The notes beneath the pieces are model-generated. The model saw only the letters and a list, made by a program, of their open reading frames with translations. It made no database searches and was not told where the DNA came from. Made by a program: the position numbers and the translations under genes. This document shows positions 3,892-63,907 of a DNA stretch of 64,000 nucleotides, in pieces. This stretch comes from Squalus acanthias (Eukaryota), in NCBI GenBank assembly GCA_030390025.1, contig CM059440.1, forward strand, positions 33,232,001 to 33,296,000, read 5' to 3'. Positions within the stretch are counted from its first letter, which is position 1. Each line of letters begins with the position of its first letter.

Positions 3892-4654
3892 GGCCCAGAA
3901 ATTCGCCTCTCCGGCTTGCCGCGGGGGTAAGGATCGCGCGCGCTCTTACCTACCGCGCCTGCCGTTGTGTTTTGGGCCCACGGGAACTTCGGGTCCTGGG
4001 CCTCTCCCAACTGCCGGCGTGCAGTGCTTGCGTGTCCCAGGGGCGCAGTTAGTGCGATGCGTCCCCTGGGATCACGTGGGCCATGGAGAGCCAATGGCAG
4101 CAGACCATCTTTCATTCATAGATTTGACGGGAGACCTGTCAAATCTGTGAATTGAAATCGGCCCCAAAAGAACAGCTAAACTTAAAATAAATTAAAATAA
4201 AACCCATCACATTTATAAAATAACTATAGTTACATAAATTAACCACTTTAAACAAAAATTAAAATTTTTGAAAAAACTAAAATACTTTTTAAAAGTGATA
4301 AAAATAAACTTACCTTTCTTTAAAGTATCTAAAAAAGATAAAGCTGTTGAAAAATTTTTAAAATTATACTTAATTAACCACTTACCTTGTTGAAAATGGG
4401 TCCTGCGCCTCCTTTTTAATAGCGTAGTTTCTTCAATACTTACCCTCGTGTAGAAACCTGAAAAAAATCTAAGTTTGCTGCGTGCGCGCAGCCTCTACCG
4501 CGCACGCGGTTCACCTAGGAACCGCCCCCTTCACCATACCGGAAGTTCCGGTTTCCCGCACATGCGCAGTGCATGCAGGAAACCGGCACTTCGGGACGCA
4601 GTATGGGTGAGTACGGACTGTGTACTCACCCGGGAACGGCCGAATTTTTGGCCC
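3892..4654. mobile_element. Harbinger-type MITE
   Basis: TIRs GGCCCAGAAATTCG / CGAATTTTTGGCCC; GC-rich ends and AT-rich core; related to the element starting at ~25902. Confidence 0.7.
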
Positions 4655-10942: not shown

Positions 10943-11927
10943 TAATTGATGCCACAAATTTCAAAAAAGTACTGGATAATTATTTACAGAGGAATATAAA
11001 AGGAAAATGGGGACAAAGCAGGAAAATGGGACCGTTTAAAATCGGTGCTGGAGGAGGGTGTAAATTCAGTGCAAGCAAGAAGGGCCAAAAGATCTGCAGT
11101 CGTGCTGTAGTTTTTATGTCTATCTGCACATATTTGCCAATGAACATACAGAGAAATGTGTTTGCCCTGAGCCCTCATTATTTTAAACAAATATAGATCT
11201 CAAACCTTATTCCTGTGTCCTGTCCAGATCTGTAAGAAAAGCACTAGAACAGCCACAGCAGATGGGGCAGCAGTATTCAAGTCTTGGCAGGACCTAGGCC
11301 TTATAGAGAATAAAGGGTTGTTGAGGATAAACGAGTGGGTTGAAATTGTGCTGTGCGATATCAGTACTGAAATGCATTGATGTGGTCATACGAAATTCCT
11401 TGCCGGAATTTTCCCACTGCCGTGCGTGCGGGATTGGAGGTGGGTCGGCAGTAAAAGTGGAACCCGCTGTCATCCCGCCTCCTCGCGCCTTTAATTCGGG
11501 TGTGTTTGCCAGCGCAGCACGGACCCGAACGGCAGAGGCGGGCGAACGAATTTAGACCATTATTACCTTGTTGTCAGATCCTTAACCGTGATTTTAACCA
11601 GACCTTTTGAATTTCACTACATGACCACAGGAATCATGCAGCTCGTGAACCACGTCTGTCAGCCTGAGGTGGAAGTTCAGTGGCCATTGAGCGAGGTCAT
11701 TACTGCAGAGCGTGGAAAGCACAATAAATACTGTTACCTGACACCTGCTTACTTTCCTAAGGGAAATGCTGTTGATGAGTGCATTTTCAGCACAGATTTA
11801 GGTCTCTACAGTTTGCACATCTTTTCTGCAAATTCGGAAACCACTCTCACCTCATTGCTACTACCAATCACACCATTAACGGATTACTTCTCTGATCGCT
11901 ACTTGACCCGCCATCTATTACATCAGC

Positions 11928-13172
11928 ATGAGTGCCGTTTATACTGTCTCACCTTGGTCCTCAGAATCGGCCCACGATAAGCCCCAACACCAGCAGCAGC
12001 AGGCACACCACCAGCGGCAACAACAAGACCACCAACCTTCTCCTCAATGACCTTATGCTGCACAGGACAGAGGGCATCAGCGCAGGGCTGCACCGCACTG
12101 TCGACGATACCCCCAACACAGGATGTACAGGCAGAGGATGAGCTTCCACAACATGACTGAGCAGCAGTGCCAAAGGAGGCTCAGGCTATCGCGTCAAGTC
12201 GTCGCAGACATTTGCAGGTTGTTGGAGCAAGGGCCTGCAGCCCAGAGGACCTGGTGGACACACCTTACCAGTGGCTGTCAAACTCACCAGCACCCTCAAC
12301 TTCTTTGCCTCAGGCTCCTTCCAGGGATCTGCAGCAGACATTTACGGCATCTCGCAGTCGGCCGCCCACAGATGTATCACACAGGTCACCGATGCCCTGT
12401 TTGACAGTCAGCCAAATACATCAACTATGCCACTGATGAAGCCAGTGTTACTGAGTGGGCGTTCGGCTTTGCGGCTCTGGCTGGCTTCTCATGGGTGCAG
12501 GGCGTCATCGACTGCACACCTGTGGCCATCAGGGCACCCCATCATCACCCAGGAGTGTTTGTCAATCGCAAAGGCTTCCACTCCCTCAATGTGCAGCTCG
12601 TCTCCAACCATAGGAAGATCATCATGCATGTGTGCGCCAAATTCCCTGGCAGCTGCCATGACTCTTTCGTCCTGTGCCAGTCCACCCTCCCTCAGCTCTT
12701 CACACCTCCAAACAGATTTTCTGGCTGGCTGCTTGGAGACAAGGGCTATCCACTGAAGACGTGGCTCATGGCATCCTTGAGGAGGCCAAGTATTGAGGCC
12801 CAGGAGAGATATAATGAAAGCCACATGTCCACCAGATGTGTCATAGAGCAGACAGTAGGCATGCTGAAAATGCGCTCCAGACACCTTGACAGATCTGGAG
12901 GAGCCCTTCAGTACGCACCAGCCAGGGTCTCCAGAATCGTCATCGTCTGCTGCGCCCTGTACAACAAAGCGCAGCAGCGAGGATTAGCGCTGCATGAGGA
13001 GCAAGGCACTGAGCGCACAGCCTCTTCAGAGGAGGAGGAGCAGGAGGAGCAGGAGGAGGAGGAGGAGGAGGAGGAGGAGGAGGAGGAACCTGAGGTCCAG
13101 ATGCCAGCAGCACCTGAGCACATTGCTGCCCGGGAGGCCAGGGAGGACCGCATCATGGCCAGATTTACTTAA
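11928..13172 (+). pseudogene. Harbinger DDE transposase (HARBI1-like), disrupted
   Basis: ATG at 11928, one in-frame TGA (~12048) and frameshifts at ~12230 and ~12407. Motifs [46 protein letters not shown]; acidic poly-Glu tail. Confidence 0.9.
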
Positions 13173-13485
13173 CTTCCTGCATTACACCTATATGGCTGCC
13201 ACATGGTGCACCAGGTTCACCCCCCAACCCCCACCCACCCAACAACACCATAAAACATCCCTACAATGACCAGGCCATTCCTTTCACACTGACCCCCATT
13301 GCTGGAGGTAACATTATGTCTCACCATTCACTCCAACTCACTAATCCACTTCCAAAGTAGCAGACACAATAGGGCATGACCGGAAAGTGGTGAAAAAAAT
13401 CATTTTATATGTGATTTTATCGTTTTATATTTATAAGAGTAACGGAACCTTAACAGAAACAGTTCTTTAAACACCCATGTGGATA

Positions 13486-15364
13486 CTAATGTGTCATCTT
13501 TTGCTTGCATGTGCTTCTACGAGGTGCTACCCCTATGGTTTCAGCAGAGGTAGAGGCAGCCTGCTCACTTCCCTGCTCCAACTGCTTAGACACTCTTGGT
13601 GGATGTTCTCTGGGTTTTGGAGTCTCTGATGGCCCCGCCAAAGTCTGCTCCTCCTGCGACTGTGCAGGGGCATACTCGGCCATCGTGATCCCAGGAGGCA
13701 TCTGGGGCTCTGACTGAGGGGGTGGCAATGGGGGAGAAGTGTGAGCACTTTGAGGGGAGCCCACACTTCCATGTCCCCTCTAACCATCATCCCTGTCATG
13801 GGTCACCTGCACTTCCCTGTTAGCAAGGAGCTGGAGAGCAACTTCCTGCACAGCAGTGGGGCCATGAGGACCCAAGTCTACTTTGACATCCCTCCTACAG
13901 AGGAAGTCTATGAGCCTCTGCCATCTGTTCTCCATAGATAGCATGTGAGTGACGCATTAGCTGCTCCATGCAGATGGCCATCCTTTCCATGGAAGAGCCT
14001 ACAGTCACCATCGCTTGCGACACGGTGGTGCTCATGTTGGAGATGGACTCCTCCATTCTCTGCACATTTGCAGATATCTTGGTCGCAAAACCTGTCAGAG
14101 CCTCCTGCACTCCTTCCTGCACCTCCAGGATCACCCTCTTTCCTGATGGTCCCCGAGGTTCAGCGTCTGCATGCAGCTGAGCAGAGCTGGGAGCGTCCTG
14201 CGCCCTCCGGCGAGGAGTCTCCATTGCTGTCCCTGTCTCCACCATCTCTTGCTCACTTGTGAGTTGTGAGACACCAGGTGACAACACTACTCTATCTCGC
14301 GTGGGACCCACCGAGGTGTGTGTATCTATGCTGGTGCTGGGTGTGCTCATGTCTGGTGATGGTGCACCCTCAGAGGCTGGAGGCTCCTCTGAGGAGTCGT
14401 CTTCCTCTTGCTCCTGGACAGTGGGGGGCGTGGTGTGGGGGGGGGGGGGGTGGGGAGGAGAGCTCTTGATGGACCTGTGGGAGAGTAACAAGATGACTTA
14501 AAAATGTCATATCAAGAATGGGTAACAATACCATTATGCACATGATGAACATTAACTGGCTGCTGACATCAGTCCTCATATGAGTGACTGCTGTAGGCCC
14601 TGTGGCTGTATGAGATGTAATTCTGCCATCAGGTTGTTGAGATGTCCCCCTCGCTCCGTTTCCCTCTGCCAGCTGATCTGCAACTCCTGAGACCTCCAGG
14701 GCGACCTCCTCTGCTGGAGTCAACGTGGCGAATGATGGAGGGCCACCTCCGGTTCTCTTCCTCTCCCTCTTATTGTGGGCTCTCTTTTCCTGCAAGGAGG
14801 TAAAGAGAAGGTTGAGTGAGAGTGATGGAATGAGTGGGTTACATCTTTAAAGGGTGACTATGAGGGAGTGGGGTGGCAATGCCAAAGTGCTAATGCAAAG
14901 TCGCCTCCTTCTGTGGTGTTAATTGCTAAGATTGCATTAGGATGAGGGTGCGTGTGAGGGGTGGTTAGTCAGATGGGGATGTGAGTATGTAGATAGAGAG
15001 GGATGGGTGGATGTGCAAGGTATGTTGGTGTGAGTAATGCTGTGCAGGAGTAGGGTTGGGAAGGCAGAGTGATGGGGATGTGATGAGAGGCACAGCAAGA
15101 TGAGGGTGAGTGCGGCTTTGTACTCACCTTTCTTGATCTCATGAGATCATTGAAGTGCTTCTGGCACTGCACCCAGGTCCTCCTGACCACATCCCTGCTG
15201 TTCACCTCCTCAGTCTCCAACCAGGCTCGTGTGGTCTCCTGGGGAGGTCTCTTCCACCCATCCGAAGGGAAGCGGACCGCCCAGCGTGCTCTCACTCCCT
15301 CCACAAGCATATATAGTGAGTCATCTGAGAACCTGGGTGCAGCCCTCTGTCTCTGTGCAGCCAC
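13486..15364 (-). pseudogene. Harbinger Myb/SANT-like DNA-binding protein, 3 exons, disrupted
   Basis: Exon 1 15364-15128 (GTG in place of ATG; APRFSDDSL...RRTWVQCQKHFNDL; donor GTGAGT). Exon 2 14789-14627 (EKRAHNKRERKRTGGGPP). Exon 3 from 14474, with frameshifts. Confidence 0.85.
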
Positions 15365-16427
15365 GTGTGCAAGGCTAAGCAAGACCCAAATGCTGAAATG
15401 TACTGCCTGCACACTCCTAGATGAACCTTCAAATGCAATGTGGCCATGGCTCCTTTAAAGACCACGGCTGGAAATGAGTCATCAGACCCGCACCATTTAC
15501 TAGGGCCTGGAAACGTGCTGGCCTGCCTTAATCGGCGCCATTAAGGGAAAGCCCCTCAGAGGAGCGGGATGAAAAGAGGAACGGGGTCCCGACCCGTCAC
15601 GCCGACCGCCCGCACCCGACCCGACCCAACCCGACCAGGTAATGAAAGTTCCGGCCCCTGTGTCTACTATTTTAATAAACCAGTTTAAAATAAATGAATT
15701 AACATCTTTGTGGACAAAGGCATTTCATCTGAAGGTGTCAATGTCCCATTTGGGAGAGTTTCTGCCTGGTACATATCAGGAAATTACAGATCCCCAGCCC
15801 TAATTTTCTATCTATTAATGTTAATGGATTGGAAATCACAGGCTGGGGGAGCAATTTTTCCCAGGGGTGTATCAGGAGCGACAAAGAGATGCGGTACCTC
15901 AGCTGCAACCTATACTTACAGTCCAGCGGGACTTTCAGACCCCTCACTGGAGGAACAGTAATCAGTTTCATAACTGTCACATGTAAAAACTTCCAAATTC
16001 GAACCCCATATCATACCGATAAAGACATCAAATTACCTTCATATATTATTCTGCTACAGTATTCACAGACCGAAAACAATCAAGTAATTGAGTTTTCTCA
16101 TGCAATACTGCATCAATTTGTATGCATTATGAGGAGCTTACAAAGGCATTTATCTTGTATATTCTAGTTAGTGGTTTAAATCAATATGTTTTCCTTTCTT
16201 TATTAGCTGATTCATGCAGAATAAATGAGATGCTTTTTAAGTTAGAATTTTGTTATATAAGAGGGTTCACTTCTTCTATATCAGAGGGAGCAGATGTATT
16301 GGAGAGAAGTGACTTAATGAGCAATGGTGTTTACTTAGTCTGCCGTCTCTCAGCTCGGTGCTGTTTGGCCTTTCCACACAGCCCTTAACCCTTTGCCTAC
16401 ATAACAACAATGACTACACTGGCTTAT

Positions 16428-16620
16428 GCTGGGGTACAGTGCTATGGGAGCTGGCAATTGCACCCAAAGTGGCACTCTTTATAACGTGAACCCAGACATT
16501 GAGTGTTGGCAAACTGTTTGACCATGGGAGAGCACAGATCAGCTTGACCCTGCCCTCCCTCACCTGACAACCACACACTTACCAGCGGGAGTCACTGGTT
16601 TGTGATAAGGAGGTGCCCTG
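16428..16620 (-). mobile_element. LF-SINE-like element, 3' half
   Basis: gctggggtacag...ccaaagtggc...gagtgttggcaaactgtttgacc...ccagcgggagtcactgg matches the recalled LF-SINE consensus and other copies in this window. Confidence 0.65.
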
Positions 16621-18054
16621 GGCACAGTTACCAGCAGGAGTCACTGGTTTGTGATGAGGAGGTGCCCTGGGCACAGTTACCAGCAGGAGTCACTGGTTTG
16701 TGATGAGGAGGTGCCCTGGGCACGGTCGCCAGCGGGAGTCGCTGGTTTGTGATGAAGAGGTGCCCTGGGCACAGTTACCAGCGGGAGTCACTGGTTTGTG
16801 ATAAGGAGGTGCCCTGGGCACAGTTACCAGCAGGAGTCACTGGTTTGTGATGAGGAGGTGCCCTGGGCACGGTCGCCAGCGGGAGTCGCTGGTTTGTGAT
16901 GAGGAGGAGCCCTGGGAACAGTTACCAGCGGGAGTTGCTGGTTTGTGATGGGGAGGAGCCCTGGGCACGGTCACCAGCGGGAGTCGCTGGTTTGTGATGG
17001 GGAGGTGCCCTGGGCACGGTCGCCAGCGGGAATCGCTGGTTTGTGATGAGGAGGTGCCCTGGGCACGGTTACCAGTGGGAGTCGCTGGTTTGTGATGAGG
17101 AGGTGCCCTGGGCACAGTTACCAGCGGGAGTCGCTGGTTTGTGATGAGGAGGTGCCCTGGGCACAGTTACCAGCAGGAGTCGCTGGTTTGTGATGGGGAG
17201 GAGCCCTGGGCACAGTTACCAGCAGGAGTCGCTGGTTTGTGATAAGGAGGTGCCCTGGGCACGGTTACCAGCAGGAGTCGCTGGTTTGTGATGGGGAGGA
17301 GCCCTGGGCACGGTCACCAGCAGGAGTCACTGGTTTGTGATGGGGAGGAGCCCTGGGCACAGTTACCAGCGGGAGTCGTTGGTTTGTGATGAGGAGGTGC
17401 CCTGGGCATGGTCGCCAGCGGGAATCGCTGGTTTGTGATGAGGAGGTGCCCTGGGCACGGTTACCAGTGGGAGTCGCTGGTTTGTGATGAGGAGGTGCCC
17501 TGGGCACAGTTACCAGCGGGAGTCGCTGGTTTGTGATGAGGAGGAGCCCTGGGCACAGTTACCAGCGGGAGTTGCTGGTTTGTGATGGGGAGGAGCCCTG
17601 GGCACGGTCACCAGCGGGAGTCGCTGGTTTGTGATGAGGAGGTGCTCCGGGCACGGTCGCCAGCGGGAGTCGCTGGTTTGTGATGAGGAGGTGCCCTGGG
17701 CACGGTTACCAGTGGGAGTCGCTGGTTTGTGATGAGGAGGTGCCCTGGGCACAGTTACCAGCGGGAGTCGCTGGTTTGTGATGAGGAGGTGCCCTGGGCA
17801 CAGTTACCAGTGGGAGTCGCTGGTTTGTGATGAAGAGGTGCCCTGGGCACAGTTACCAGTGGGAGTCGCTGGTTTGTGATGAGGAGGTGCCCTGGGCACA
17901 GTTACCAGTGGGAGTCGCTGGTTTGTGATGAAGAGGTGCCCTGGGCACAGTTACCAGCGGGAGTCGCTGGTTTGTGATGAGGAGGTGCCCTGGGCACAGT
18001 TACCAGCAGGAGTCGCTGGTTTGTGATGAGGAGGAGCCCGGGGCACGGTCACCA
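16579..18054. repeat. 49-bp minisatellite, ~30 copies
   Basis: Unit GTTACCAGCGGGAGTCGCTGGTTTGTGATGAGGAGGTGCCCTGGGCACA; period 49 (16627 to 16676). Confidence 0.97.
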
Positions 18055-18200
18055 ACTCTGGTTGGACGTATTTCTGGAGGTTCCATCACATGATCTCCCG
18101 TCCCGCCCCCCCCTCCACGCTCCCACCATCGGTTGCCCAACACGTCCATCTTTGCAACGCACCGCCTTCCCACACCAAGTGTAAAGTGAACAGACTCTGT

Positions 18201-19937
18201 GTCTGTGATTTCGCTGACTGAGGCGGGTCCGGGGCGGCCGGGGTCAGTAGCGCGGTCCCAGCCCGCTGCCTGCTCCATCCCACTCTGTAGAAGTGATTTT
18301 ACGTTGATTGGGCTTGTTAAGCCCCGCCCAGCGAGGTATCTGGCCAATTAAAAGCAAGCAGGTGTGATGACGTCATCTGATGATGCATCATCAGCCGGTT
18401 TCTTTAAAGGGACCATGTCCAAATTGATTTTGACGTTTGTGCTGTCAGTGTTCTACAACATTGAGGTGCTGCAAACACTGACAAGCACTGCACAGAGGTG
18501 CACGGCTGCACCCAGGCTCTCCAATGACTCCCTCCATACGCTTATGGAGGGAGTCACAGCACGCAGGGTGGTCCTCTTTCCCTTCCAATGGGCGGACAGA
18601 CCTCCCCAGGAGACCAATACAGCCTGGTTGCACATTACACAGGAGGACACAAGCAGGGATGTCATCCGGAGGACCAGGCTGCAGAGACACAAACCTTTCA
18701 ATGATCTCAGTAGATCACAAAGTGTTACTGCCAAGCCACACTCAACCTCATCCTGCTGTGCCACCCATCACATCCCCATCACTCTGCCTTCCTTACCCTA
18801 CTCCTGCACATCCTCACTCACACCAACTTCCCTTGCACCTCCACCCATCCTTCTCTATCTACATTATCACTTCCCCATCTTGCACTCACCCTCATCCTAG
18901 TGCAAGCATACCAACTAACAACAAACAAGGGTAGGTACTTGGGTATTTTAGCCAATGTTCATGTGAAGTTTCTGTTAATGTGCTGTCAAACATTGAAATC
19001 TTTATTTTCAACACCTTGTGTTCTTGGACAGATTTGTGTGCACCTTTGGAAGTGTCTTAGTGAGTTGTAGTGAATGGTGAGACATAAGGGTAACCGCACC
19101 CCCCCCCACCCCCGCAAGGGTGATGAGTGTGAAAGGAATGGCTTGGGCATTGTAGGGATGCTTTACGGTGCTGGTGTGGGGTGGTGCCAACCTGGTGCAT
19201 CATGTGGCAGCCAGGGTGTACAGCATCGAGTGAAGTAAATCTGGCCATGGTGAGGCCATCGCTGGCGTCCCAGGCAGCAATGTGCACGGGTGATGATGCC
19301 CTGTCTCCAGTGCAGCATCAGTTGATTGCGGAGAAGGTTGGTGTTGTTGCTGGTGGTGGGATTCTGAGGACCAAGGTGAGATTTTTTCAGGGGCACCGAT
19401 GCTGATGGAATAGATGGCAGGTGAAGTTGAGATGACAGAAGTGATCTGTCAATGGTGAGAGAGGGTGTTCCAATGAGGTGACACTGGATAGAGAGTTTGC
19501 TCCAAACACTTGCAACCTGCATAAAGCTCAATCTGTCTTCCAAATGCAGTAAGCAACAGCTTCTGACCTTGGAAAGTGACGACCTATGAAATGGGAGCTT
19601 TTATAGACCATTTGCAGCTTCAAGTTAGTAAATCATCCCATGCTGACACAACACCCGACCTCCTTACCTGACATGATCCCCGAGCAGCGGGGAAGCCGTG
19701 GGCGAACTCTAAAAATCTAAAGGTGAGCTTAAAATAATACTTAATTGCCTCTTAACAATCCAGCTAATGATCTAAATTGCCTCCCCCGCCACTTGGTGTC
19801 GAGTTTGTTCAGCGCTGACAGACCCAACACCCGAGAGACTAGTGTGGAGGCGTGTTGACACCCACTGTCAATCATTTCAAATTTCACAGCTGACCCGCCT
19901 CCGATCCCGTCCTGTCAGCGCCGGTAAAATTCCGGCC
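18201..19937. mobile_element. Non-autonomous Harbinger derivative (~1.74 kb)
   Basis: Ends gtctgtgatttc / AAAATTCCGGCC; colinear (inverted) with 62149-63907; has Myb exon 1 remnant and fused transposase N- and C-terminal remnants. Confidence 0.88.
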
Positions 19938-39477: not shown

Positions 39478-41165
39478 GGGTAATTTTAACCCCCCAACAT
39501 GGGTGGGTCAGGTGGGAAGATAAAATTGAAAAAATTTCAAACCCGAACCCAGCCCACCTCGAACCCGCCCACTTCTGGTTTTAATGGAGGCGGGACGGTG
39601 GACGGGCGACCAACCTGCTCTCAGGAGATGGGTTTCAATGCGGCTGTGCGTCTATGATTTTTTCTTTCTTCCAGCTTTAACGCCAGCTGTCCGGGTTTCC
39701 CTGGACTCGGGAAACCCGGCAGCTGAAGGCAGGCAAGAACTGGTGGATGGAACAGGTAAGTGCCTTTCCAGCACTGCTTGTAAGCCAGGAGGAGCAGAAG
39801 TGCTTCACCCGGCCTGCCAAGCTATCTTGTTAACCTCCCCATGATCAGAGCTCCCCCTCCCGCGCAATCCGATGCCCTCCCCAGGTCCTCCACAGCCCCC
39901 CTGCGATCTGCTCCATGTGCTCCCCACGATCTTCTCCTCTCCTCCCCTGATCTCTCCCAGACCCCACCCATCGATATCCCCTTGACCCCCGATCACTCCA
40001 GGCACCCCATCGATGTCCCCCTCACTGACCCCGATCTCACCGGAGGCCCCCATCGATTGGATTGGGGATCGGATCCCCCCTCTTGGGATCGGACCCTCTC
40101 AGGTCAGGGATTGGACCCCCACCCACCCGGGATCGGACCCCTTCTCCCCCAGGTCAGGGATCGGACCACCCCTGGGGTTAGGGATTGGACCCCCCCTGGA
40201 TTGGACCCCCCCAGGTCAGGGATCAGACCCCCGGGTCAGGGATTGGTCCCCCCCCAGGATCAGACCCTTTCCCCCCGGGTCAGGGATTGGTCCCCCCCCA
40301 GGATCAGATCCCTTCCCCCCTGGGTCAGGGATTGGTCCCCCCCCAGGATCAGACACCCCCACCGGGTCAGGGATTGGACCCCCCCAGGATCAGACCCCCG
40401 GGTTAGGGATTGGACCCCCCCAGGATCGGACCCCTTCCCCCCTGGGTCAGGGATTGGACCCCCCCAGGATCAGAGCCCCCACCCCCCAGGTCAGGGATTG
40501 GACCCCCCCAGGATCAGAGCCCCCACCCCCCCCCTGGGGTCAGGGATTGGACCCCCCCAGGATCAGACCCCTTCCGCCCCGGGTCAGGGATTGGACCCCC
40601 CCAGGATCAGACTCCCCCCCCCGGTTCAGCGATTGGACCCCCCCAGGATCAGACCCCCCCCCCCCCGGATCATGGATTGGACCCCCCCAGGATCAGAGCC
40701 CCCCCCCCGGGTTAAGGATTGGACCCCCCCCAGGATCAGACCCCTTCTCCCCCGGGTCAGGGATTGGATACCCCCAGGATCAGACCCCCCCTGGGTCAGG
40801 GATTGGACCCCACCAGGATCAGACCCCTTTCCCCCTGGGTCAGGGATTGGACACCCCCAGGATTAGACCCCCCTCCGGGTCATGGGTTGGACGCCCCCAG
40901 GATCGGACCCCTTCCCCCCCGGATCGGACACCCACTCCCCCTCCCCTTCGGGGTTGGGGCTCGGACCTACCCGGGTCTGTGGTCGCTTCTCCAGCCTCCC
41001 CTGCCCGACTGGAAGCCAAGCCTGTCCATCAGGCTGACATCCGAGTGGGGTTCTTGTCAGTGACATCACACGCCACTGTGGAATTTAAACCCCACAGCGT
41101 GCGGGGAGACCTGGGCTTCCGGGTTTCCTGCACGCTGCCGGTGGGTCCAAAGGTTAAAATTCCCC
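39478..41165. mobile_element. Harbinger-type MITE with an expanded internal minisatellite
   Basis: TIRs GGGTAATTTTAACC / GGTTAAAATTCCCC; flanks TGA/CGA. Confidence 0.75.
40085..40930. repeat. Irregular ~33-45-bp C-rich minisatellite
   Basis: Recurring GGGTCAGGGATTGGACCCCCCCAGGATCAGACCCC with variable C tracts. Confidence 0.92.
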
Positions 41166-42565: not shown

Positions 42566-43459
42566 GGGGGAGAAATTCAGTATCGCCCCATTTGGGGCGC
42601 AATTATCGGCCGGGCGCAAAGATTAGTGCCTGGTGCTAATTATCGCCTCCGACTGCAAACTTGATTTTTATCGCCCCTGGAGGTGATTGGAGCGCTAAAT
42701 CAGGTGCTTCACACCTGTCTTAAGGCGCAAAGGCCGAAGAGCGAGGCGCTACCTCAGAGCGCTGGCGAAGCTCATGTGATGTCAGTCAGCAATGGAACAC
42801 ACACACAATGACACGGGTCAGTTCTTAAACGGGGGGTTTGATCTTGCTTTCCATCCACATCCTGCTCATTGCAGCCTTGAATCTCGGCCTGGAGAGAACT
42901 GTACATCAAATCTGCTGGAAAGAACAATGGAGAGAACCAGGGAAAGAGCTCAGAGTACAGCCCCCACAGTCTCTTCCAAATCGATACAAGGAAGGGCAAA
43001 TCAAAATGAACCTGCAAAGTGCTGCTCAGTACCCGAAACTCCTTCACACAGCGTTGAATCTCTCCAGAAGTCTCTCTCTCTCTCTCTCAGAATGCGTGGT
43101 TCAAAAATGTCATCAACAATAAAAGGCAGGCAGCGGTCGCCTTTAAATAGCGCTCCCCCAGTCCCTTCCTGACTGCAAAACGCTCCCCTCAACCTGTCGT
43201 TGCTAGCGGCAGGCGGTAAGGCAGGGGGCACCACTCAATATCCGCTCCGGGGCGATACCGGGGCGTTGCGCACTCGACTGACGTCACGATCTGCCGGCGC
43301 AGGAGATTGTGGCGGTAGTGTTTAGCGCCGCTGCAAAATGTCTAGTTAATTTCGCGAGCGGCGCAAACATCGCCACGCCCGGGCGCTAGTTGCTTTGCGC
43401 CACATTAGCGTCCTCTAAAGGCGCTAACGGGAGGCGCAACCAACTGAATTTTTCCCCCC
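42566..43459. mobile_element. Non-autonomous derivative of the 43608-47920 Harbinger lineage (opposite orientation)
   Basis: TIRs GGGGGAGAAATTCAGT / ACTGAATTTTTCCCCCC; TSD ATG; each half is homologous to one end of the autonomous element. Confidence 0.93.
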
Positions 43460-43774
43460 ATGGTGTTACTAACTCAATTCAGGGTCAAATAAGATGAAGA
43501 GAATGTGAACAGTCTATTTCAGCCAGAGAGAGAGGCTGGGGAGGTAGTTGGAATCAGTGGCAAGATTATGGAGCTTGCAGCGGGGGCCTCAGGCTTCAGT
43601 ATTCTTAGGGGTAAAAATTCAGTTGGTTGCGCCTCCCGTTAGCGCCTTAAATGGGCGCTAATGGGGCGTTAAGGCGCTAACGCCCGGGCGCAGCGCTGTT
43701 TGCGCCGCTCGAGAACTTAACTTGAGATTGTGCGGCGGCGCTAAAACTTACCGCTGCGACCACCTGCGCGCGCA

Positions 43775-43930
43775 GATTGTGACGTCATTCCGTGGTGCAA
43801 CGCCCTTGGGGCGCCCCGGAGCGGAAATTGAGTGGCGCCCCCTGCCTTACCGCCTGGCGCTTCCAACGACCGGAAGACTGGAACGTTATCAATCGGTGTG
43901 GGGCTGGGGGGGGCGCTATTTAAAGGGGGC
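43775..43930 (+). promoter_or_regulatory. Putative transposase promoter
   Basis: CRE TGACGTCA at 43780-43787, ACCGGAAG at ~43869, G-rich box, TATTTAAA at 43917-43924, then a (GA)n leader; CRE, TATA and (GA)n are also kept in both MITE copies. Confidence 0.55.
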
Positions 43931-44119
43931 CTCTTCCTGTCTTTTTCTGTGGTCGACATTTATGCACCACTCGTTCTGAGAGAGAGAGAGAGATTCGGAG
44001 AGAGAGAGAGAGAGACTTCTACATTGACTCAACGCTTTGTGAGGTAGTTTTGCCTAGTTCATCCTAACTTTGCTGCTACTTTCGTTGCTGTACCTCATTA
44101 CTTTTCTGGCAAAGAGAAT

Positions 44120-45280
44120 ATGGGGGCTGCAATGATTGGGGGCGTCGTCCTGCTCCAGCTCAATCGGAGGAGAGTGAGACGCAGACAGAGAGTGGCAATG
44201 ATGGCCAGACGGAGGAGGGCCATCAGGCGCATGTACAGGAGAGCTTACCCTCCCAGGGTATATCGTGAACAGCTCTCCTACATCCACATGTCCGAGGAGC
44301 TGTGTTTGCGAAGGCTGCGATTCAGCAAGGAGGTGGTCACTGAGCTCTGCCACCTGCTGCAGCCAGATCTGCAGCCTCAGCTGAGGTCCAGGACGTCTCT
44401 GTCGGTGGCAGTGAAGGTCACAGTGGCTTTGAACTTCTACGCCACTGGCTCATTCCAAGCTGCTGTTGGGGACCTCGCCAATATCTCCCAGTTTGCGGTG
44501 CATCGCTGCATCCGGCAGGTCACCAATGCCCTCTTCACAAGGAGACGAGACTTCATCTCCTTCCCTATGACCCCAGACAAGCAGCATGACCGTGCTATGG
44601 GCTTTGCGAGGGTAGCGGGCTTCCCCATGGTGCAGGGCGCCATTGACTGCACGCATGTGGCTTTGCGTGCTCCGCGAGAGAATGCAGAGGAGTTCCGGAA
44701 CAGAAAGGGGTTCCATTCCTTGAATGTGCAGTTGGTCTGTGACCACAGACAGGTGATTCTCGCTGTCAATGCCCACTATCCGGGCAGCTGCCACGATGCT
44801 TTCATCCTGCGCCAGAGTACTGTGGCAGAAATTTTCGAGGCACCGCATCAGCCAGTTGGTTGGCTTCTGGGGGACAAGGGGTACGCATTGAGCACCTGGC
44901 TGATGACACCGCTCCGTGCGCCAAACACCCCTGCTGAGCTGCGGTACCAGGAAAGCCAACAAGCAACGAGGAACATTATTGAGCGCACAATCGGCGTGCT
45001 CAAACAACGATTCCGCTGTCTGGACCATTCCGGAGGAGCCCTGCAGTACTCGCCTGAGCAAGTTTCCAAATTCGTAGTGGTGTGCTGCATGTTGCACAAC
45101 ATGGCAATCCTCAGGACGCAGCCAATGCCACCAGGCCTTGCAGCACCACAAGAGGAGGAGGAGGAAGAGGAGGAACAGGCCGAGGACGATGATCAGCAGC
45201 AGCACCAAGGCAGGAGGGCGGCCCACAATGGTCAAACTGCAAGGGCCGTCCGTCAACGACTAATAGCAAGCCGCTTCTAG
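44120..45280 (+). CDS. Harbinger DDE transposase (HARBI1-like nuclease), intact, 386 aa
   Basis: Uninterrupted ORF: N-terminal HTH region (RRLRFSKE, FYATGSFQ), catalytic GAIDCTH / LLGDKGY / [28 protein letters not shown], acidic tail. Confidence 0.96.
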   Translation: MGAAMIGGVVLLQLNRRRVRRRQRVAMMARRRRAIRRMYRRAYPPRVYREQLSYIHMSEELCLRRLRFSKEVVTELCHLLQPDLQPQLRSRTSLSVAVKVTVALNFYATGSFQAAVGDLANISQFAVHRCIRQVTNALFTRRRDFISFPMTPDKQHDRAMGFARVAGFPMVQGAIDCTHVALRAPRENAEEFRNRKGFHSLNVQLVCDHRQVILAVNAHYPGSCHDAFILRQSTVAEIFEAPHQPVGWLLGDKGYALSTWLMTPLRAPNTPAELRYQESQQATRNIIERTIGVLKQRFRCLDHSGGALQYSPEQVSKFVVVCCMLHNMAILRTQPMPPGLAAPQEEEEEEEEQAEDDDQQQHQGRRAAHNGQTARAVRQRLIASRF

Positions 45281-45546
45281 GGCCCCTGCACGCAACCCCT
45301 AAGCCGGCCAAGGCACCAATAATTCCAACCACCAGCCATGTATATTTTGAATACAGAAACTTATTTATTGTACAAACTCTGTGTGTGTCAATTCCTCATG
45401 ACAAACTCATAGAAATAAACACAAAAAAACAGTCAATAACATAACTGGTTCTCACAACCTGGAGATAATGTCCAAAACACTAAACAAAAGTTGGGCCATG
45501 AACCTCGGCCTTTAATAAAAAAATGACCAGCATTTTGGCACACCTC

Positions 45547-47563
45547 CTACTTTTTGCCCTTCGAGGGTGATCTCCTTCCCTTGCGCACTTCCCCCCTTCT
45601 AACCCTACTGCTCCTCCGTAATGGGACCTCAGTGGCTGCAGCAAGGCTGATGGAAGGCTGCTGCTTGTCAGACCCTGACACTGCAGATGCCCCTGAAGGA
45701 CGGCCTCGACCACTTCTGGGCCTGGAGGGCCCGGCTGCAGACTGCACCAACTCTGCATGGGCGGCAGCAGTCTGTCCTACAGGCGGTGGCAAGTGCAGTG
45801 GAGAAGTGACAGTGTTGGCAGCAGGAATGCTGTCATCGTGAGAGAGGACAGCAACTCCCTGCTCGCCCGACACACTGGCACTCCCACGGGGCAGCACTTC
45901 AGCATCCGGAGCAATTTGCCGGAGAACAGATTGCTGGCCTGCTGCGGCGCGGTGACAGCCCCGGGGACATGTGCACGAACCATCGAGGATGGCAGCAGTC
46001 AGTGCTCGCGTGGCCTCAATCTGAGTCTGCATGAGAGCAGTCTCAGATGGGTTCCTGGCAGCCAGTGACTGAATTGCAGCAGTAAGCTTTAGTGTGGCAT
46101 CCGCCTGTGCTACAGCGAAGTGCTCCACACTCCTTGCCAGTGCCTCAATGCATTCGGGCACCCTTCCCACTGCACCCATGAGCTCAGTGTGCATGCCCAC
46201 CGCCTGGCTGTTCATTTCTGCAATCAGCCGCTCCTCCTCTGCGTCCATTGCATTAGGAGTGTCTGGCATACTCTCCCTCTGGGGAGAAGGCTCCCGTTCT
46301 TCCCTCCCCCCCCATGGCGTTGCTGCAGCCCGCTGGGTCCTGGAACTTCACCATCATCAGCCCCTTCCCCCCTGCTCCCCCGTTCTTCCCTCCCCCCCCA
46401 ATGGCGTTGCTGCAGCCCGCTGGGTCCTGGAACTTCACCATCATCAGCCCCTTCCCCCCTGCTCCCCTCCGGGGAAGGCGTGTTCCCAGTGTGGCCATGG
46501 GCTTCCTCGGGAGAGGGTGGCACTGATGCTCCGGCTTCCTCTTCCTCCTCAGCTGCAGCATCACTCCCAGTGGCAGCTTCAGGGACCATCTCCTCAGCTG
46601 GTGAATCACCATCTGAAAGCAGGGAGGTACAAGAGTGGCTTTAGTGTGAGGACAGGGTGGCAGTAAGGGAGGAATAAGTGCAGCGAGTTAGCAAGTTGGA
46701 TTGAAAGTGTCAAAGGCTGGTATTGTGAGGGACAAGTGGAAGGACAGAGGACAAAAAGGTGATGACCTTACCATTGCTGTCCACAACGGGGTCGGCGTCT
46801 CCAGTGGCGACGGGACCGATCACCCGGCTTGCCACAATCCTGTGGACGCGCTCCTCCAGATCGCTGAGGGGTTGCAGCTGAAGCCGCCCTCCACCCGTCC
46901 GTTGCTGCTGTCTCCGATTATGAGCCAGCTTGGCCTGCAAGAAAAAGGACAGCATCTGAGTCAATATACAGCCATGGTCTTGCCTGATGTGCCTCCCATA
47001 GGTGAATAGCCCTTACAATATGCAGCCATGGTCTTGCCTGATGTGCCTCCCATAGGTGAATAGCCCTTACAATATGTAGCCATGGTCTTGCCTGATGTGC
47101 CTCCCATAGGTGAATAGCCCTTACTGTATGCAGCCATGGTCTTGCCTGATGTGCCTCCCATAGGTGAATAGCCCTTACTGTATGCAAAGTGTGGAATGTG
47201 TGTGTGTGTTTGATGAAAGGGCCATAGGTGTTGCATGAGTGTTGTGCATTGGGGTTTTAAGACCCTCTGGCCATAGAGTGAGGTTGAGATGGAGGGATGG
47301 AGAGGTATTGAGAAAAAGCCACTCACCCTGACGACCCGAGTGAGGTCGTTGAACTTTTTGCGGCACTGGACATGGGTCCTGGGCACCATGCTCCTGGAGG
47401 AGACGCTCTGAGCCACCTCCCTCCACACTCTTCTGAACTCGCGTGGCAAAGGCCTCCTGCCACTCTCCGGGAACAGCATGCATCGTCTGCGCTCCACTGC
47501 GTCAACCAGAGCATCCAAGGCCCGCTCGGTGAAGCGATGAGCGCGTTCTCTCACCCTCTCCAT
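45547..47563 (-). CDS. Harbinger Myb/SANT-like DNA-binding protein; exons 47563-47327, 46934-46772, 46612-45547; one 1-nt frameshift at ~46313
   Basis: MERVRERAHRFTERAL...W...RTHVQCRKKFNDL | AKLAHNRRQQQRTGGG | acidic linker, helical region, basic tail; canonical GT-AG sites with matching phases (0, then 1). Confidence 0.88.
46966..47186. repeat. 54-bp tandem repeat, 4 copies, in Myb intron 1
   Basis: GCCATGGTCTTGCCTGATGTGCCTCCCATAGGTGAATAGCCCTTAC... at 46971, 47025, 47079, 47133. Confidence 0.95.
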
Positions 47564-48557
47564 GCTTGGCAGCAAAATGGATTACAGGTCTCTCCAGGCT
47601 GAGATTCAAGGCTGCAATGAGCAGGGTGTGGCTGGGAAGCAAGTGGCCCCCCCCGCTTTAAGAAGTGTCCGGCGCCAGTGTGTCTGTGTTCCCTCGCTAA
47701 CTGGCAGCAGCTGCGCTGCGCTCGTGCGCTGAGGTAGCGCCTCACTCCTAGGCCTTTGCGCCTTAAGAGAGGTGTGCAGCGCCTAATTTAGCGCTCCACT
47801 CACCTCCCGGGGCGGTAAAAGTGAAGTTTCCTGTCAGTGCCGATAATTAGCGCCAGGCGCTAATATTTGCACGCGGACGATATTTGCGCCCCAAATGGGG
47901 CGCGACCTAATTTCTACCCCTTAGTGTTTAGCTGCAGGAAATTGAGGATAATCCAAGAGCCTAACGTCACATAGGTAGTGGAATGGTCGGGACAAGTGGT
48001 AGAAAGGTGGAGTTGGATGTTGTCAATATACATGTGGGACCTGACCCCCATGTCTTCAAATAATGTCGTCAAGGGGAAGTATGTAGATGAGGAAGAGGAG
48101 GGGGGTCAGGGTGGGGGGAGGGGGAACAAGGATAGATACTTGAAAGTCACCAGAAGAAAAGGTGCAGGAAGAGAAGCCATCACTGAAATTCAGCACAAAT
48201 TGGCATTATATCAACACTCTTACTCAGAGAGGGTGGTTGGGATGGAATTATTGCACTACTGCAGTCGGAGGTGTTCTTCTGAAGTTGGGGGTTAAGCATA
48301 TTATTGTAACAGTATAGAAAGATGTAAATCCTATCCCTAACTACAAGCTGGGAGGGTTTGATGCTGACACTAAAGGGAAGATTTTCTGATTGTGTGCTTC
48401 TGGTGCAGAGTTGCGCTCACTGGGAGTGGATATTGGAACATTATGCGAATATTGTCCGTGGTGATTTTATGTCCATTAAAATGAATGGAGGGAAAATTGT
48501 GGGCCTTGTCAAATTCCTGCTATGTGCTCCCAATGAGCAACGCCCTGCACCTGAATA

Positions 48558-58808: not shown

Positions 58809-59699
58809 GGGGGAGAAATTCAGTATCGTCCCATTTGGGGCGCAATTATCGGCCGGGCGCAAAGATTAGCGCCTGGCGCAAATTATCGCCACCGACTGCA
58901 AACTTGACTTTTATCGCCCCTGGAGGTGATTGGAGCGCTAAATCAGGCGCTGCACACCTGTCTTAAGGCACAAAGGCCGAGGAGCGAGGCGCTACCTCAG
59001 AGCGCTGGCGAAGCTCATGTAATGTCAGTCAGCAATGGAACACACACACAATGGCACGGGCCAGTTCTTAAAGGGGATGGTTAATCTTGCTTTCCATCCA
59101 CATCCTGCTCATTGCAGCCTTGAATCTCGGCCTGGAGAGACCTGCACATCAAATCTGCTGGAAAGAACAATGGAGAGTACCAGGCAAAGAGCTCAGAGTG
59201 CAGCCCCCACAGTCTTTTCTAAATCGATACAAGGAATGGCAAATCAAAATGAACCTGCAAAGTGCTGCTCAGTACCCAAAACTCCTTCACACAACGTTGA
59301 ATCTCTCCAGAAGTCTCTCTCTCTCTCTCAGAATGCGTAGTTCAAAAATGGAACCAACAATAAAAGGCAGGAAGCGGTCACCTTTAAATAGCGCTCCCCC
59401 TTTCCCTTCATGACTGCAGAACACTCCCCTCAACCTGTCATTGCTAGCATCAGGCGGTAAGGCAGGGGGCGCCACTCAATATCCGCACTGGGGCGATACC
59501 GGGGCGTTGCGCACTCGACTGACGTCACGATCTGCCGGCGCAGGAGATCGTGGCGGTAGTGTTTAGCGCCGCCGCAAAATCTCTAGTTAATTTCGCGAGC
59601 GGCGCAAACTTCGCCGCGCCTGGGCGCTAGATGCTTTGCGCCCCATTAGCGCCCTCTTAAGGCGCTAACGGGAGGCGCAACCAACTGAATTTTTCCCCC
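58809..59699. mobile_element. Second copy of the 42566-43459 Harbinger MITE
   Basis: TIRs GGGGGAGAAATTCAGT / ACTGAATTTTTCCCCC; TSD AAG; colinear end to end with copy 1. Confidence 0.95.
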
Positions 59700-60027: not shown

Positions 60028-61370
60028 GCTCTCTCCCCCCCAGTCTCTCTCCCCCCCAGTCTCTCTCTCTCCCCCCATTGTCTCTCTCCCCCCAGTCTCT
60101 CTCCCCCCCAGTCTCTCTCTCTCCCCCCATTCTCTCTCTCCCCCCAGTCTCTCTCTCCCCCCAGTCCCTAACCCTCTCCCGTCTCTCTCTTTCTCTCTCC
60201 CCCGTCTCTCTCTCTCTCTCTCCCCGTCTCTCTCCCTCTGTCCCCCCCGGCTCTCTCTCTCTCTCCCCCCGTCTCTCTTTCTCACTCCCCCCAGTCTCTC
60301 TCTCTCTCTCCCCCCCAGTCTCTCTCTCTCTCTCCCCCCCAGTCTCTCNNNNNNNNNNNNNNNNNNNNNNNNNNNNNNNNNNNNNNNNNNNNNNNNNNNN
60401 NNNNNNNNNNNNNNNNNNNNNNNNNNNNNNNNNNNNNNNNNNNNNNNNNNNNNNNNNNNNNNNNNNNNNNNNNNNNNNNNNNNNNNNNNNNNNNNNNNNN
60501 NNNNNNNNNNNNNNNNNNNNNNNNNNNNNNNNNNNNNNNCCAGTCTCTCTCTCTCTCTCCCCCCAGTCTCTCTCCCTGCCCCGTCTCTCTCTCTCCCCCG
60601 TCTCTCTCTCTCTCTCTCTCCCCGTCTCTCTCTCTCTCCCCCCAGTCTCTCTCTCTCACTCCCCACAGTCTCTCTCTCTCTCTCCCCCCGTCTCTCTCTC
60701 TCTCTCACCCCCAGTCTCTCTCTCCCCCCAGTCTCTCTCTCTCTCTCCCCGTCTCTCTCTCTCTCTCCCCCCAGTCTCTCTCTCTCTCTCACCCTCAGTC
60801 TCTCTCTCACCCCCCAGTCTCTCTCTCTCTCCCCCCAGTCTCTCTCTCTCCCCCCCAGTCTCTCTCTCTCTCTCCCCCCCAGTCTCTCTCTCTCTCCCCC
60901 AGTCTCTCTTTCTCTCTCTCTCCCCCCAGTCTCTCTCTCTCCCCCCCAGTCTCTCTCTCTCCCCCCCAGTCTCTCTCTCTCTCTCCCCCCCAGTCTCTCT
61001 CTCTCCCCCCAGTCTCTCTCTCTCCCCCCCGTCTCTCTCTCTCTCTCTCCCCCAGTCTCTCTCTCTCCCCCCAGTCTCTCTCTCTCTCTCCCCCAGTCTC
61101 TCTCTCTCTCCCCCCAGTCTCTCTCTCTCTCTCTCCCCCCAGTCTCTCTCTCTATCCCCAGTCTCTCTCTCTCTCTCCCCCAGTCTCTCTCTCTCTCCCC
61201 CCAGTCTCTCTCTCTCCCCCCCAGTCTCTCTCTCTCTCTCTCCCCCAGTCTCTCTCTCTCTCCCCCCAGTCTCTCTCTCTCTGCCCCCAGTCTCTCTCTC
61301 TCTCCCCAAGTCTCTCTCTCTCTCTCTCCCTAGTCCCTCTCTCTCTCTCCCCCATCTCTCTCTCTTTCTG
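60028..61370. repeat. (CT)n/CCCCAGT compound microsatellite spanning an assembly gap (N, 60349-60539)
   Basis: Seen directly in the sequence. Confidence 0.97.
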
Positions 61371-62148: not shown

Positions 62149-63907
62149 GGCCGGAATTTTACGGGTGCTGAGAGACGGGACTGGAGGCGGGTCAGCAGTG
62201 AAATTTGAAATGATTGACAGCATGTAGGGAACCCACTGTCAACCCGCCTCCATGTGAGTCTCCCAGATGTTGGGTCTGTCAGCGCTGAACAGACCCGTCA
62301 CCAAGTGGCGGGGGAGGCAATTTAGATCATTAGCTGGATTGTTAAGAGGCAATTAAGTATCATTTTAAGCTTGCCTTCAGATTTTTAGAGTTCGCCAACA
62401 GCTTCCCCGCTGCTCGGGGATCATGTCAGATAAGGAGATCGGGTGTTGTGTCAGCATGGGATGATTTACTAACTTGACAGCTGCAAATAGTCTATGAAAG
62501 CTTCCATTTCATAAGTCTTCACTTTCCAAGCTCAGAAGCTGTTGCTTACTGCATTTAGAAGACAGATTGAGCTTCATGCAGCTAGCAAGTGTTTGGAGCA
62601 AACTCTCTATCTAGTATCACCTCATTGGAACAACCTCTCTCAACATTGACAGATTGCTTCTGTCATCTCAACCTCACCTGCCATCTATTTTATCAGCATC
62701 GGTGCCCTTGAAAAAATCTCACCTTGGTCCTCAGAATCCCACCACGATCAGCCCCAACACCAGCATCACCGGGTACACCAACAGCACCAACATCCACACC
62801 AACCTTCTCCGCAATCAACTGATGCTGCGCAGGACAGAGGCCATCAGCGCCCGACCACATTGTTGCCAGGGACACCAGGGATGGCCTCACCATGGCCAGA
62901 TTTACTTCACTTGACGCTATACACCCTGGCTGCCACATGATGCGCCACCCCACACCAACACCATAAAGTATCCCTACAGTGTCCAAGCCATTCCTTTCAC
63001 ACTCATCACCATTGTGGGGGTACCGTTATGTCTCACTATTCACTGCAACTCACTAAGCCACTTCCAAAGGTGCACACAAATCTGTCCAAGAACGCAAAGT
63101 GTTGAAAATAAAGATTTCAAAGTTTGACATCACATTAACAGAAACGTCACATGAACATTGGCTAAAACACCCAAGTGCCTACCCTTGTGTGTTGTTAGTT
63201 GGTATGATTGGACTAGAATGAGGGTGAGTGTGAGGGGTGGCTAGTGAGATGGGGAAGTGTGATGTAGATAGAGAGGGATGGGTGGAGGTGCAAGATAAGT
63301 TGGTGTGAGTAAGGATGTGCAGGAGTAGGGTAGGGAAGGCAGAGTGATGGGGATGAGATGAGTGGCACAGCAGGATGAGGTTGAGTGTGGCTTTGCAGTA
63401 ATGTTTCATGATCTGCTGTGATCATTGAAAGTTTGGCAGCCTGGTCCTCCTGACGACATCCCTGCATGTGTCCTCCTGTGCAATGTGCAACCAGGCCGCG
63501 TGGGTCTCCTGGGGAGGTCCCTTTCGCCCATTGGAAGGGAAGAGAACCTCCCTGCGTGCTGTGACTCCCTCCATAAGCATATGGAGGGAGTCATGGGAGA
63601 GCCTGGGTGCAGCCGTGCACCTCTGTGCAGTGCTTGTCAGTGGTTGCAGCGCCTCAATGCTGTAGAACACTGACAGCACAAACGTCAAAATCAATTTGGA
63701 CATGGCCCCTTTAAGGAAACCAGCTGATTGCGCATGATCAAATGACATCATCAGACCCGCTTGCTTTTAATTGGCTGGGAACTTTGCTGGGCAGGCTTAA
63801 CAAGTCCAATCATCGTAAAATCACTTCAACAGAGTGGGATGGAGCAGGCAGCGGGCTGGGACCGCGCTACCGACCACGGACCCGCCTCAGTAGTCGAAAT
63901 CGTGGCC
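62149..63907. mobile_element. Non-autonomous Harbinger derivative (~1.76 kb), inverted relative to 18201-19937
   Basis: Ends GGCCGGAATTTT / GAAATCGTGGCC; flanks GAT/AAT inside CR1 (gagaa-GAT-gtttcc). Confidence 0.9.

What the first reader, a model, noticed from the sequence alone, without database searches (positions are those of the whole stretch)
42566..43459. MITE made of two convergent promoters fused at the start codons of both genes
Seen: the plus strand reads ATG GAG AGA ACC AGG GAA AGA GCT CAG (MERTRERAQ, 42927; autonomous Myb starts MERVRERAH). It then meets the reverse complement of the transposase start (GTG GGG GCT G(C/T)A at 42967 and 59210; autonomous ATG GGG GCT GCA). The same junction is in 58809-59699 with a different TSD, so this form transposed as a unit. 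Both TATA-like boxes, the CRE and both leaders are kept. Inference: each promoter would transcribe antisense RNA to the other gene's leader, giving a mobile module that could repress the autonomous element or fire into flanking DNA in both directions.
Basis: partly seen in the sequence, partly recalled or inferred. Interest (0 to 1): 0.7.

Follow-up and report, generated by a model that had tools for sequence, protein, structure and literature searches.

The report
Gene-less Harbinger that outlived its parent
This is one of at least 14,000 copies of a small gene-less jumping element that kept both ends of an older two-gene transposon up to just past the start codons; its ends likely changed to suit a younger helper transposon while the middle drifted, and nothing here shows that it works as an antisense repressor.

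Summary
The anatomy is real; the proposed function is not supported. 42566-43458 is an 893-bp non-autonomous Harbinger; 13,837 genome sites carry its exact junction. Its parent is not the neighbouring element (80% alike) but an older 4,090-bp family P, joined 14 nt after the transposase ATG and 27 nt after the Myb ATG, at a 4-nt microhomology. Inward-facing promoters follow from any deletion of a convergent element. Both breaks this near the ATGs had roughly 0.1-3% chance, but it is one event; six other derivatives break elsewhere. Along the subfamily ladder the leaders drift freely (28 of 316 conserved sites changed, against 9 of 373 in the ends), lose their match to the young autonomous family A, and lose the transposase ATG; CpGs decay 4.8-fold, the CRE's included. 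The ends move towards family A (13 of 19 changes, interior 0 of 18), and a younger subfamily swapped both ends for A-type ends; the scan noted that swap before on other DNA (e1-9192116). Best reading: a passive hitch-hiker shaped by mobilisation. Transcription is untested.

The parts
42566..43458 (.). Non-autonomous Harbinger (MITE-like), 893 bp, main subfamily M; TIRs GGGGGA(G/A)AAATTCAG; TSD ATG with one extra C at 43459
42566..42953 (+). Myb-side arm = last 388 nt of parent P: subterminal repeats, TATA-like box, leader, first 9 codons of the Myb gene
   Evidence: P 3703-4090
42954..43458 (-). Transposase-side arm = first 502 nt of parent P: subterminal repeats, CRE, TATA, GA repeat, leader, first 14 nt of the transposase gene
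   Evidence: P 1-502
42927..42929 (+). Relic Myb start codon; opens an 81-aa frame across the junction in 38 of 86 copies, other lengths in the rest
42950..42957 (.). Deletion junction; the parent has a 4-nt microhomology (6 of 7 with flanks) at the two breaks and the product holds 2 nt more than a clean microhomology join
42965..42967 (-). Relic transposase start, GTG here, ATG in the parent and in older subfamilies
42822..42829 (+). TATA-like TTCTTAAA on the Myb side
43142..43149 (-). TATA-like TATTTAAA on the transposase side
43279..43286 (.). CRE palindrome TGACGTCA, inside the constrained end; intact in 66 of 93 copies
58809..59699 (.). Second copy, younger subfamily Y, same junction, TSD AAG
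43608..47920 (.). Full-length two-gene Harbinger of the young family A, TSD TTA; not the parent, but the likely present helper type
44120..45280 (+). Family A transposase, 386 aa, DDE_Tnp_4 (E 5e-38)
47327..47563 (-). Family A Myb/SANT gene, exon 1 (Myb_DNA-bind_5, E 3e-9); the gene runs towards the transposase gene

Best explanation
It is a gene-less Harbinger transposon made by one internal deletion of an older two-gene family, and it is most likely a passive hitch-hiker whose ends, not its promoters or leaders, are what selection for mobility acts on. Shown: the element equals the first 502 and last 388 nt of family P; P's genes converge, so both promoter regions face inwards. Inferred: the deletion arose by microhomology-guided repair after excision. 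Shown: copies form a ladder P > O > M > Y > N with falling divergence (3.2, 1.9, 1.7, 1.1%); the ends gained letters of the younger autonomous family A/A2, and in N both ends are A2-type around the unchanged old middle. Inferred: after P decayed, variants whose ends suit the A-type Myb and transposase proteins were copied more, and ectopic repair between the abundant short element and A2 supplied such ends. Inferred by analogy with mPing: holding almost no coding sequence may let it multiply without silencing its helper, the opposite of a repressor.
For: Parent found and joined exactly: majority of 13 P copies, about 94% alike to M (54 differences) against about 80% for the neighbour. Ladder and ages. 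Parent-conserved sites changed: ends 9 of 373, interior 28 of 316, Fisher p=0.0003; interior observed 28 against 30.7 expected. O>M non-CpG changes towards family A: ends 13 of 19, interior 0 of 18, p=1e-5 (one of the 13, site 770, is already A-like in P; counted from P with CpG sites included it is 17 of 24 against 5 of 26). No listed P-type long copy carries more than 3 of the 13 left or 11 right M-type end letters, so the change happened in the short lineage. 19 of 30 loci of the A-type TIR pattern (7,873 hits) are N, 1 is intermediate, 8 are long, 2 are another derivative. CpG transitions 4.8 times non-CpG (332/6254 against 212/19075), CRE CpG hit 12 times in 57 copies. Other derivatives break elsewhere. 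mPing precedent: PMC5724284 passages.
Against: Both breaks within 30 nt of the ATGs had only 0.08-3% chance per event under simple size limits, and a second lineage (L149, L166, L173) breaks within 5 nt of it on the Myb side. This middle is the most abundant derivative in both the P-end and the A-end rounds (12 of 15 and 20 of 22 short loci), which fits an advantage of the middle as well as sheer abundance. The Myb-side TATA-like octamer had 0 variants in 114 copies against 9.2 expected and is altered in 1.9% of 13,384 sites against about 3.5% expected. Neither TATA nor the CRE changed along the ladder. Mobilisation by family A proteins is inferred, not tested; patchy conversion without selection could also move the ends.
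Confidence: 0.76

Rival explanations
1. One reading: both promoters fire, each makes antisense RNA to the other gene's leader, and the copies repress the autonomous element or drive flanking DNA both ways.
For: Both TATA-like boxes, the CRE and both leaders are unchanged or kept along the ladder; breaks close to both ATGs are unlikely by chance; 18-30 of 80 Myb-leader 21-mers still match family A within one mismatch; N carries the A2 transposase TATA region. MuDR has the same convergent layout (10.1101/2020.01.09.900282, passages) and its deletion derivatives are reported to make antisense RNA (Kim and Walbot 2003, title only).
Against: Leaders drift at the chance rate and away from family A; CpG decay points to methylated copies, the CRE included; family A is very young and numerous beside these copies (150 of 150 scored hits 100% identical in Myb exon 1); the same MuDR title says such derivatives are not dominant-negative; an element that silenced its helper would curb its own spread (inference).
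Confidence: 0.08
2. The middle helps the element move for reasons other than RNA (length, spacing, nucleosome position or a protein site such as the Myb-side TATA-like box), which is why this junction was carried through successive end changes.
For: Most abundant derivative in both rounds; Myb-side octamer under-mutated; internal sequence alters mPing mobility (PMC9921582, passages).
Against: No overall constraint on the interior; 2 of 148 ten-base windows reach p<0.01, about what chance gives; a form without the Myb TATA, leader and junction stands in 28 contigs of run X12.
Confidence: 0.12
3. Nothing is selected: the A-like letters in the ends come from gene conversion among tens of thousands of related copies, and the successful subfamilies are lucky founders.
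For: The first about 68 nt of M match A2 as one tract and N is a plain two-crossover mosaic; ends are more alike between families than leaders, so conversion is easier there; X-E-X Galileo copies are explained this way (PMC3573991, passages).
Against: Changes away from conserved letters are 3.7 times rarer in the ends, which conversion alone explains poorly; A-like sites in M are scattered among unconverted sites and went to near fixation in the later subfamilies.
Confidence: 0.2

Closest known systems
mPing / Ping / Pong (rice Tourist-like MITE, PIF/Harbinger); PMC2836001, PMC9921582, PMC5724284, PMC12595863, passages only
   Same: Clean internal-deletion derivative of a transposase + Myb-like element; 3-bp TSD with extended target preference; high copy number; moved in trans, also by a sister family; shares no or almost no coding sequence with the helper.
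   Different: 893 bp against 430 bp; keeps both TATA-like boxes, both leaders and the first codons; parent genes converge; at least 14,000 copies over several subfamilies; ends exchanged for those of a younger family.
Harbinger3_DR / Harbinger3N_DR of zebrafish and the Nuwa groups of PHIS; PMC2836001 and PMC4482050, passages only
   Same: Animal Harbinger with DDE transposase and Myb/SANT gene, about 4.1-4.3 kb, TIRs starting GGG, non-autonomous partner.
   Different: TSDs here are mostly A/T triplets of mixed kind, not CWG (1 of 27) nor strictly TNA (5 of 27); no sequence comparison with Harbinger3_DR was made.
MuDR deletion derivatives of maize; 10.1101/2020.01.09.900282 passages; Kim and Walbot 2003 seen as a title in a reference list only
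   Same: Two convergent genes with promoters at the ends; deletions leave promoters facing each other; closest precedent for the antisense idea.
   Different: Mutator superfamily; the title reports antisense RNA without dominant-negative effect; here transcription is untested and the derivative became a large family.
Galileo X-E-X copies and subfamily E of Drosophila mojavensis; PMC3573991, passages only
   Same: Ends of one subfamily around the middle of another, put down to ectopic recombination or conversion.
   Different: Here the mosaic (N) reached thousands of copies and follows a phase of scattered end changes towards the same donor family.

Membership tests
PIF/Harbinger (PHIS) superfamily | Autonomous partner encodes a DDE transposase of this type and a Myb/SANT protein | tested here: met
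   Window element: DDE_Tnp_4 E 5e-38, Myb_DNA-bind_5 E 3e-9; parent P proteins 82% identical to them
PIF/Harbinger (PHIS) superfamily | 3-bp target site duplication | tested here: met
   27 of 30 copies
PIF/Harbinger (PHIS) superfamily | Short TIRs and a target preference wider than the TSD | tested here: met
   15-nt TIRs with 1-2 mismatches; C/T before and G/A after the TSD, A at -4 in 22 of 27, T at the mirror place in 20 of 27
NuwaI group | TSD CWG | tested here: not met
   1 of 27; definition from PMC4482050 passages
NuwaII group | Target C|TNA|G | tested here: inconclusive
   Flanking C 16 of 27 and G 17 of 27, but TNA only 5 of 27; no tree against Nuwa transposases was built
MITE (Tourist-like) | No coding capacity, deletion derivative with both ends | tested here: met
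   Only 14 + 27 nt of coding sequence
MITE (Tourist-like) | High copy number of uniform length | tested here: met
   13,837 exact junctions; 27 of 30 left-TIR loci are full 890-900 bp copies
MITE (Tourist-like) | Short, under 600 bp (PMC5724284 passage) | tested here: not met
   893 bp; MITE-like non-autonomous element is the safer name
MITE (Tourist-like) | Mobilised in trans by a related transposase | not testable with these tools
   Inferred from TSDs, copy number and end changes
Trans-acting antisense repressor derivative | Antisense RNA made from the element's own promoters | not testable with these tools
   Only unstranded contigs of runs not on record as RNA
Trans-acting antisense repressor derivative | Complementarity to the active element maintained | tested here: not met
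   16 of 18 interior O>M changes move away from family A, none towards; matching 21-mers fall
Known structured RNA family | Rfam match | tested here: not met
   0 matches at E<=1

The most novel reading that the evidence does not exclude
A coding-free pair of head-on promoters has been kept mobile across a change of helper: the element took over the ends and transposase promoter of the younger family, and its many copies make antisense RNA that throttles the burst of that family or start host transcripts in both directions, so that a parasite of a transposon doubles as its regulator.
Probability: 0.08. Interest if true: 0.7.

Novelty: new member of a known kind. Interest (0 to 1): 0.3.

Why it matters
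As a promoter or repressor module it matters little on present evidence. Its value is as a dated record of how a gene-less DNA transposon survives the decay of its parent: parent, four subfamilies and the new helper family all lie in one genome, and about a dozen end positions are named candidates for what Harbinger Myb and transposase proteins recognise. That makes partner switching directly testable. If the antisense reading were true, more than 14,000 mobile two-way promoters in a vertebrate genome would be a notable regulatory layer.

Tried and rejected
(1) Window element 43608-47920 as parent: rejected, about 80% alike. (2) First parent pattern found nothing; a looser one found 71 sites. 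(3) Expression: no RNA holder listed. Contigs of runs X1, X2, X3, X9 ('RNA?' by guess) and X12 cover all 30 bins of the element and bridge the junction region, with no piled starts or ends; contigs cannot show start, strand or level, so this says nothing for or against transcription. (4) An invariant Myb-side TATA (0 of 114) did not hold genome-wide: 258 of 13,384 altered, at most about twofold under an estimate resting on 55 events in 37 copies; transposase TATA 4 of the first 100. (5) Splicing as the cause of the deletion: no GT follows either break in P (sequence). (6) A conserved peptide across the junction: 81 aa in only 38 of 86 copies. (7) A P-type autonomous subfamily with M-type ends: none among the long copies listed. 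(8) Rfam: none. (9) Breakpoints of the abundant 750-bp AT-rich MITE family could not be mapped: no parent among held loci. (10) The A-family left majority was spoiled by N copies, and N was cut short; both were redone, and only the right-end rows stand. (11) Rooting the tree on family A is unreliable (long branch); the order rests on divergence and on the ATG. (12) Kim and Walbot 2003 is not held; only its title was seen. Paper searches gave no description of this family or of a convergent-promoter MITE repressor; searches gave no closer precedent for end exchange by title or abstract start. No supplements were read.

Full report
Observation. From 42927 the plus strand gives nine Myb-like codons, and these abut the reverse complement of a transposase start at 42967-42954. 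The copy at 58809-59699 is 93.5% alike with the same junction and another TSD (AAG against ATG). The two TATA-like boxes and the CRE are at 43149-43142, 42822-42829 and 43279-43286. In the 3.7-Gb genome the 23-nt junction occurs 13,837 times exactly (control 0); this pattern misses subfamily N, which has a change inside it. The left TIR 24-mer occurs 10,572 times, and 27 of its first 30 loci are full copies. An unselected 600 kb held 3 full or nearly full copies and one fragment, so roughly 20,000 copies is a fair guess. A 3-bp TSD was found in 27 of 30 copies. That the host is shark-like comes from earlier scan notes, not from a test of mine.

Parent. The neighbour at 43608-47920 has a DDE_Tnp_4 transposase on plus and a Myb/SANT gene on minus, converging, but is only about 80% alike. 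A pattern for the Myb start continuing into coding sequence found 71 sites; 20 were fetched, 16 gave both ends, and 13 of near-full length gave a 4,090-bp majority, family P. The short element is P 1-502 joined to P 3703-4090, that is 14 nt behind the transposase ATG (489) and 27 nt behind the Myb ATG (3729). Both ATG contexts are shared by P, A and one more long family, the transposase ATG also by a fourth. At the two breaks P has the same four letters (six of seven with flanks), and the product holds two letters more than a clean join: a likely trace of microhomology-guided repair (inference). Such 4-nt matches are common (0.5% of position pairs), so they tell the mechanism, not the place.

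Is the place special? Under simple limits on size, both breaks fall within 30 nt of the ATGs with probability 0.0008-0.03. It is, however, one event, chosen after the fact. Other derivatives, relative to the two ATGs: L149/L166/L173 about -40 and +32; L195/L204/L258 -52 and -81; L190 +54 and +258; L250 about codon 60 and Myb intron 1; L165 and L143 deep inside. So 1 of 7 has both breaks at the starts; four of seven break within about 55 nt of the transposase ATG, which size alone favours. The 5-nt closeness of two lineages on the Myb side stays unexplained. The commoner 750-bp AT-rich MITE family showed no match to P.

History. 91 full copies (93 less L149 and one N copy) form a ladder from P-like copies to the window's two types. 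With 114 copies, non-CpG divergence from the own majority is 3.2% (O, 31), 1.9% (M, 49), 1.7% (Y, 12) and 1.1% (N, 22); these samples were picked by patterns and best hits, so the values are not unbiased. The transposase ATG became GTG on the way (25 of 30 ATG in the oldest cluster; 38 of 47 GTG in M). At sites where P and A agree, O>M>Y changed 9 of 373 in the ends and 28 of 316 in the interior (p=0.0003); the interior count is what chance gives (30.7). O>M non-CpG changes went to family A's letter in 13 of 19 cases in the ends and 0 of 18 in the interior, where 16 went away from it (site 770 is doubtful). No listed P-type long copy has these end letters in number. The A-type TIR pattern (7,873 hits) gave 19 of 30 loci with the Y middle and the same junction but A2-type ends, about 337 nt left and 200 nt right. 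I found this before reading that the scan had noted the end-swapped form elsewhere (e1-9192116). Family A is very young: the 150 scored hits of its Myb exon 1 are all 100% identical, and 30 right ends differ from their majority by 0-2.4%.

The promoter and antisense reading. For it: the motifs are all kept, and the Myb-side octamer showed 0 variants in 114 copies against 9.2 expected. Genome-wide it is altered in 258 of 13,384 flank-matched sites, 1.9% against about 3.5% expected; the transposase TATA is altered in 4 of the first 100 (4.8% expected). Each octamer had a 0.48 chance of passing the ladder unchanged. Against it: CpGs decay 4.8 times faster than other C/G, the CRE's CpG among the fastest (12 hits in 57 copies), which points to germ-line methylation (inference). 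Leader 21-mers within one mismatch of family A fall from 10 to 3 of 145 and from 30 to 18 of 80 between O and N. The end exchange stopped short of the leaders. A form lacking 42771-42986, that is the Myb TATA, leader and junction, stands in 28 contigs of run X12. Transcription itself could not be tested.

Mechanism. Shown: deletion structure, subfamily order, constraint and A-ward change in the ends, drift in the middle, mosaic N. Inferred: repair-born deletion; mobilisation first by P and later by A-type proteins; selection among copies on the ends; ectopic repair as the source of new ends. In Harbinger3_DR the Myb-like protein binds the ends (PMC2836001, passage), which makes the subterminal repeats the likely target. 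For mPing, escape from silencing is put down to sharing no coding sequence with Ping (PMC5724284, passages); a derivative that stops at the start codons would fit that, though it is untested here.

Comparison and verdict. It works like mPing (deletion derivative, cross-mobilised) and has the layout of MuDR derivatives (convergent genes; reported by title to make antisense RNA without dominant-negative effect); the N form resembles Galileo X-E-X copies. It meets the PHIS tests made here; it fails the CWG test of NuwaI and the under-600-bp MITE limit. All papers were seen as passages or listings, none whole, no supplements. New member of a known kind; interest 0.3, most of it for the partner-tracking history.

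Noticed in passing
window 43608-47920; L031-L060; L194, L196, L205: Family A looks extremely young: 150 of 150 scored hits are 100% identical in Myb exon 1 and copies differ by well under 1% at the ends. A candidate naturally active vertebrate Harbinger. The window copy has an open 386-aa transposase; whether its Myb gene is whole was not settled.
   Followed up: partly
L192-L220 (19 loci), L276, L278: Subfamily N: old middle with both ends of family A2; L206 looks like a part-way form.
   Followed up: yes
window 46612-46772: A 159-nt skip with CT..AC ends (a minus-strand intron of the Myb gene) stands in 1 contig of X2 and 2 of X3, not in X12 (only 24 letters on the short side): a weak hint that an A-type Myb gene is spliced in those runs.
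   Followed up: no
L149, L166, L173: An 780-810 bp lineage with P-type ends and a transposase leader closer to another long family (L227); perhaps an older case of end exchange. Its Myb break lies 5 nt from that of the main family.
   Followed up: partly
L195, L204, L258: A 740-bp derivative of the A/A2 type that lacks both start codons and most of the Myb leader.
   Followed up: partly
window 43459-43607; L062, L065, L073, L077, L210-L213, L219, L220: Copies cluster: the window copy lies 149 bp from a family A element, and 10 of 60 loci (some overlapping pairs) hold a second end within 3 kb. Local hopping or shared target preference; not tested.
   Followed up: no
window 3920-4627; L007, L008, L173, L222, L223, L258, L275: An abundant family of about 750 bp with TIRs starting GGCCCAGAAATT and an AT-rich core; no parent among held loci.
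   Followed up: partly
window about 2300-3600, 18300-19900, 62200-63800; 11500-15500: Three related elements with a Myb exon but no transposase hit, and one decayed two-gene Harbinger of a more distant family.
   Followed up: no
window 46293-46467 and 46962-47184: The family A Myb gene holds an 87-bp tandem duplication in exon 3 and a 54-bp array in intron 1 whose copy numbers vary among copies.
   Followed up: no
window 16476-18196, 40092-40962, 60049-61349: A 49-bp tandem array of about 30 units, a 44-bp array and a long CT-rich simple repeat.
   Followed up: no
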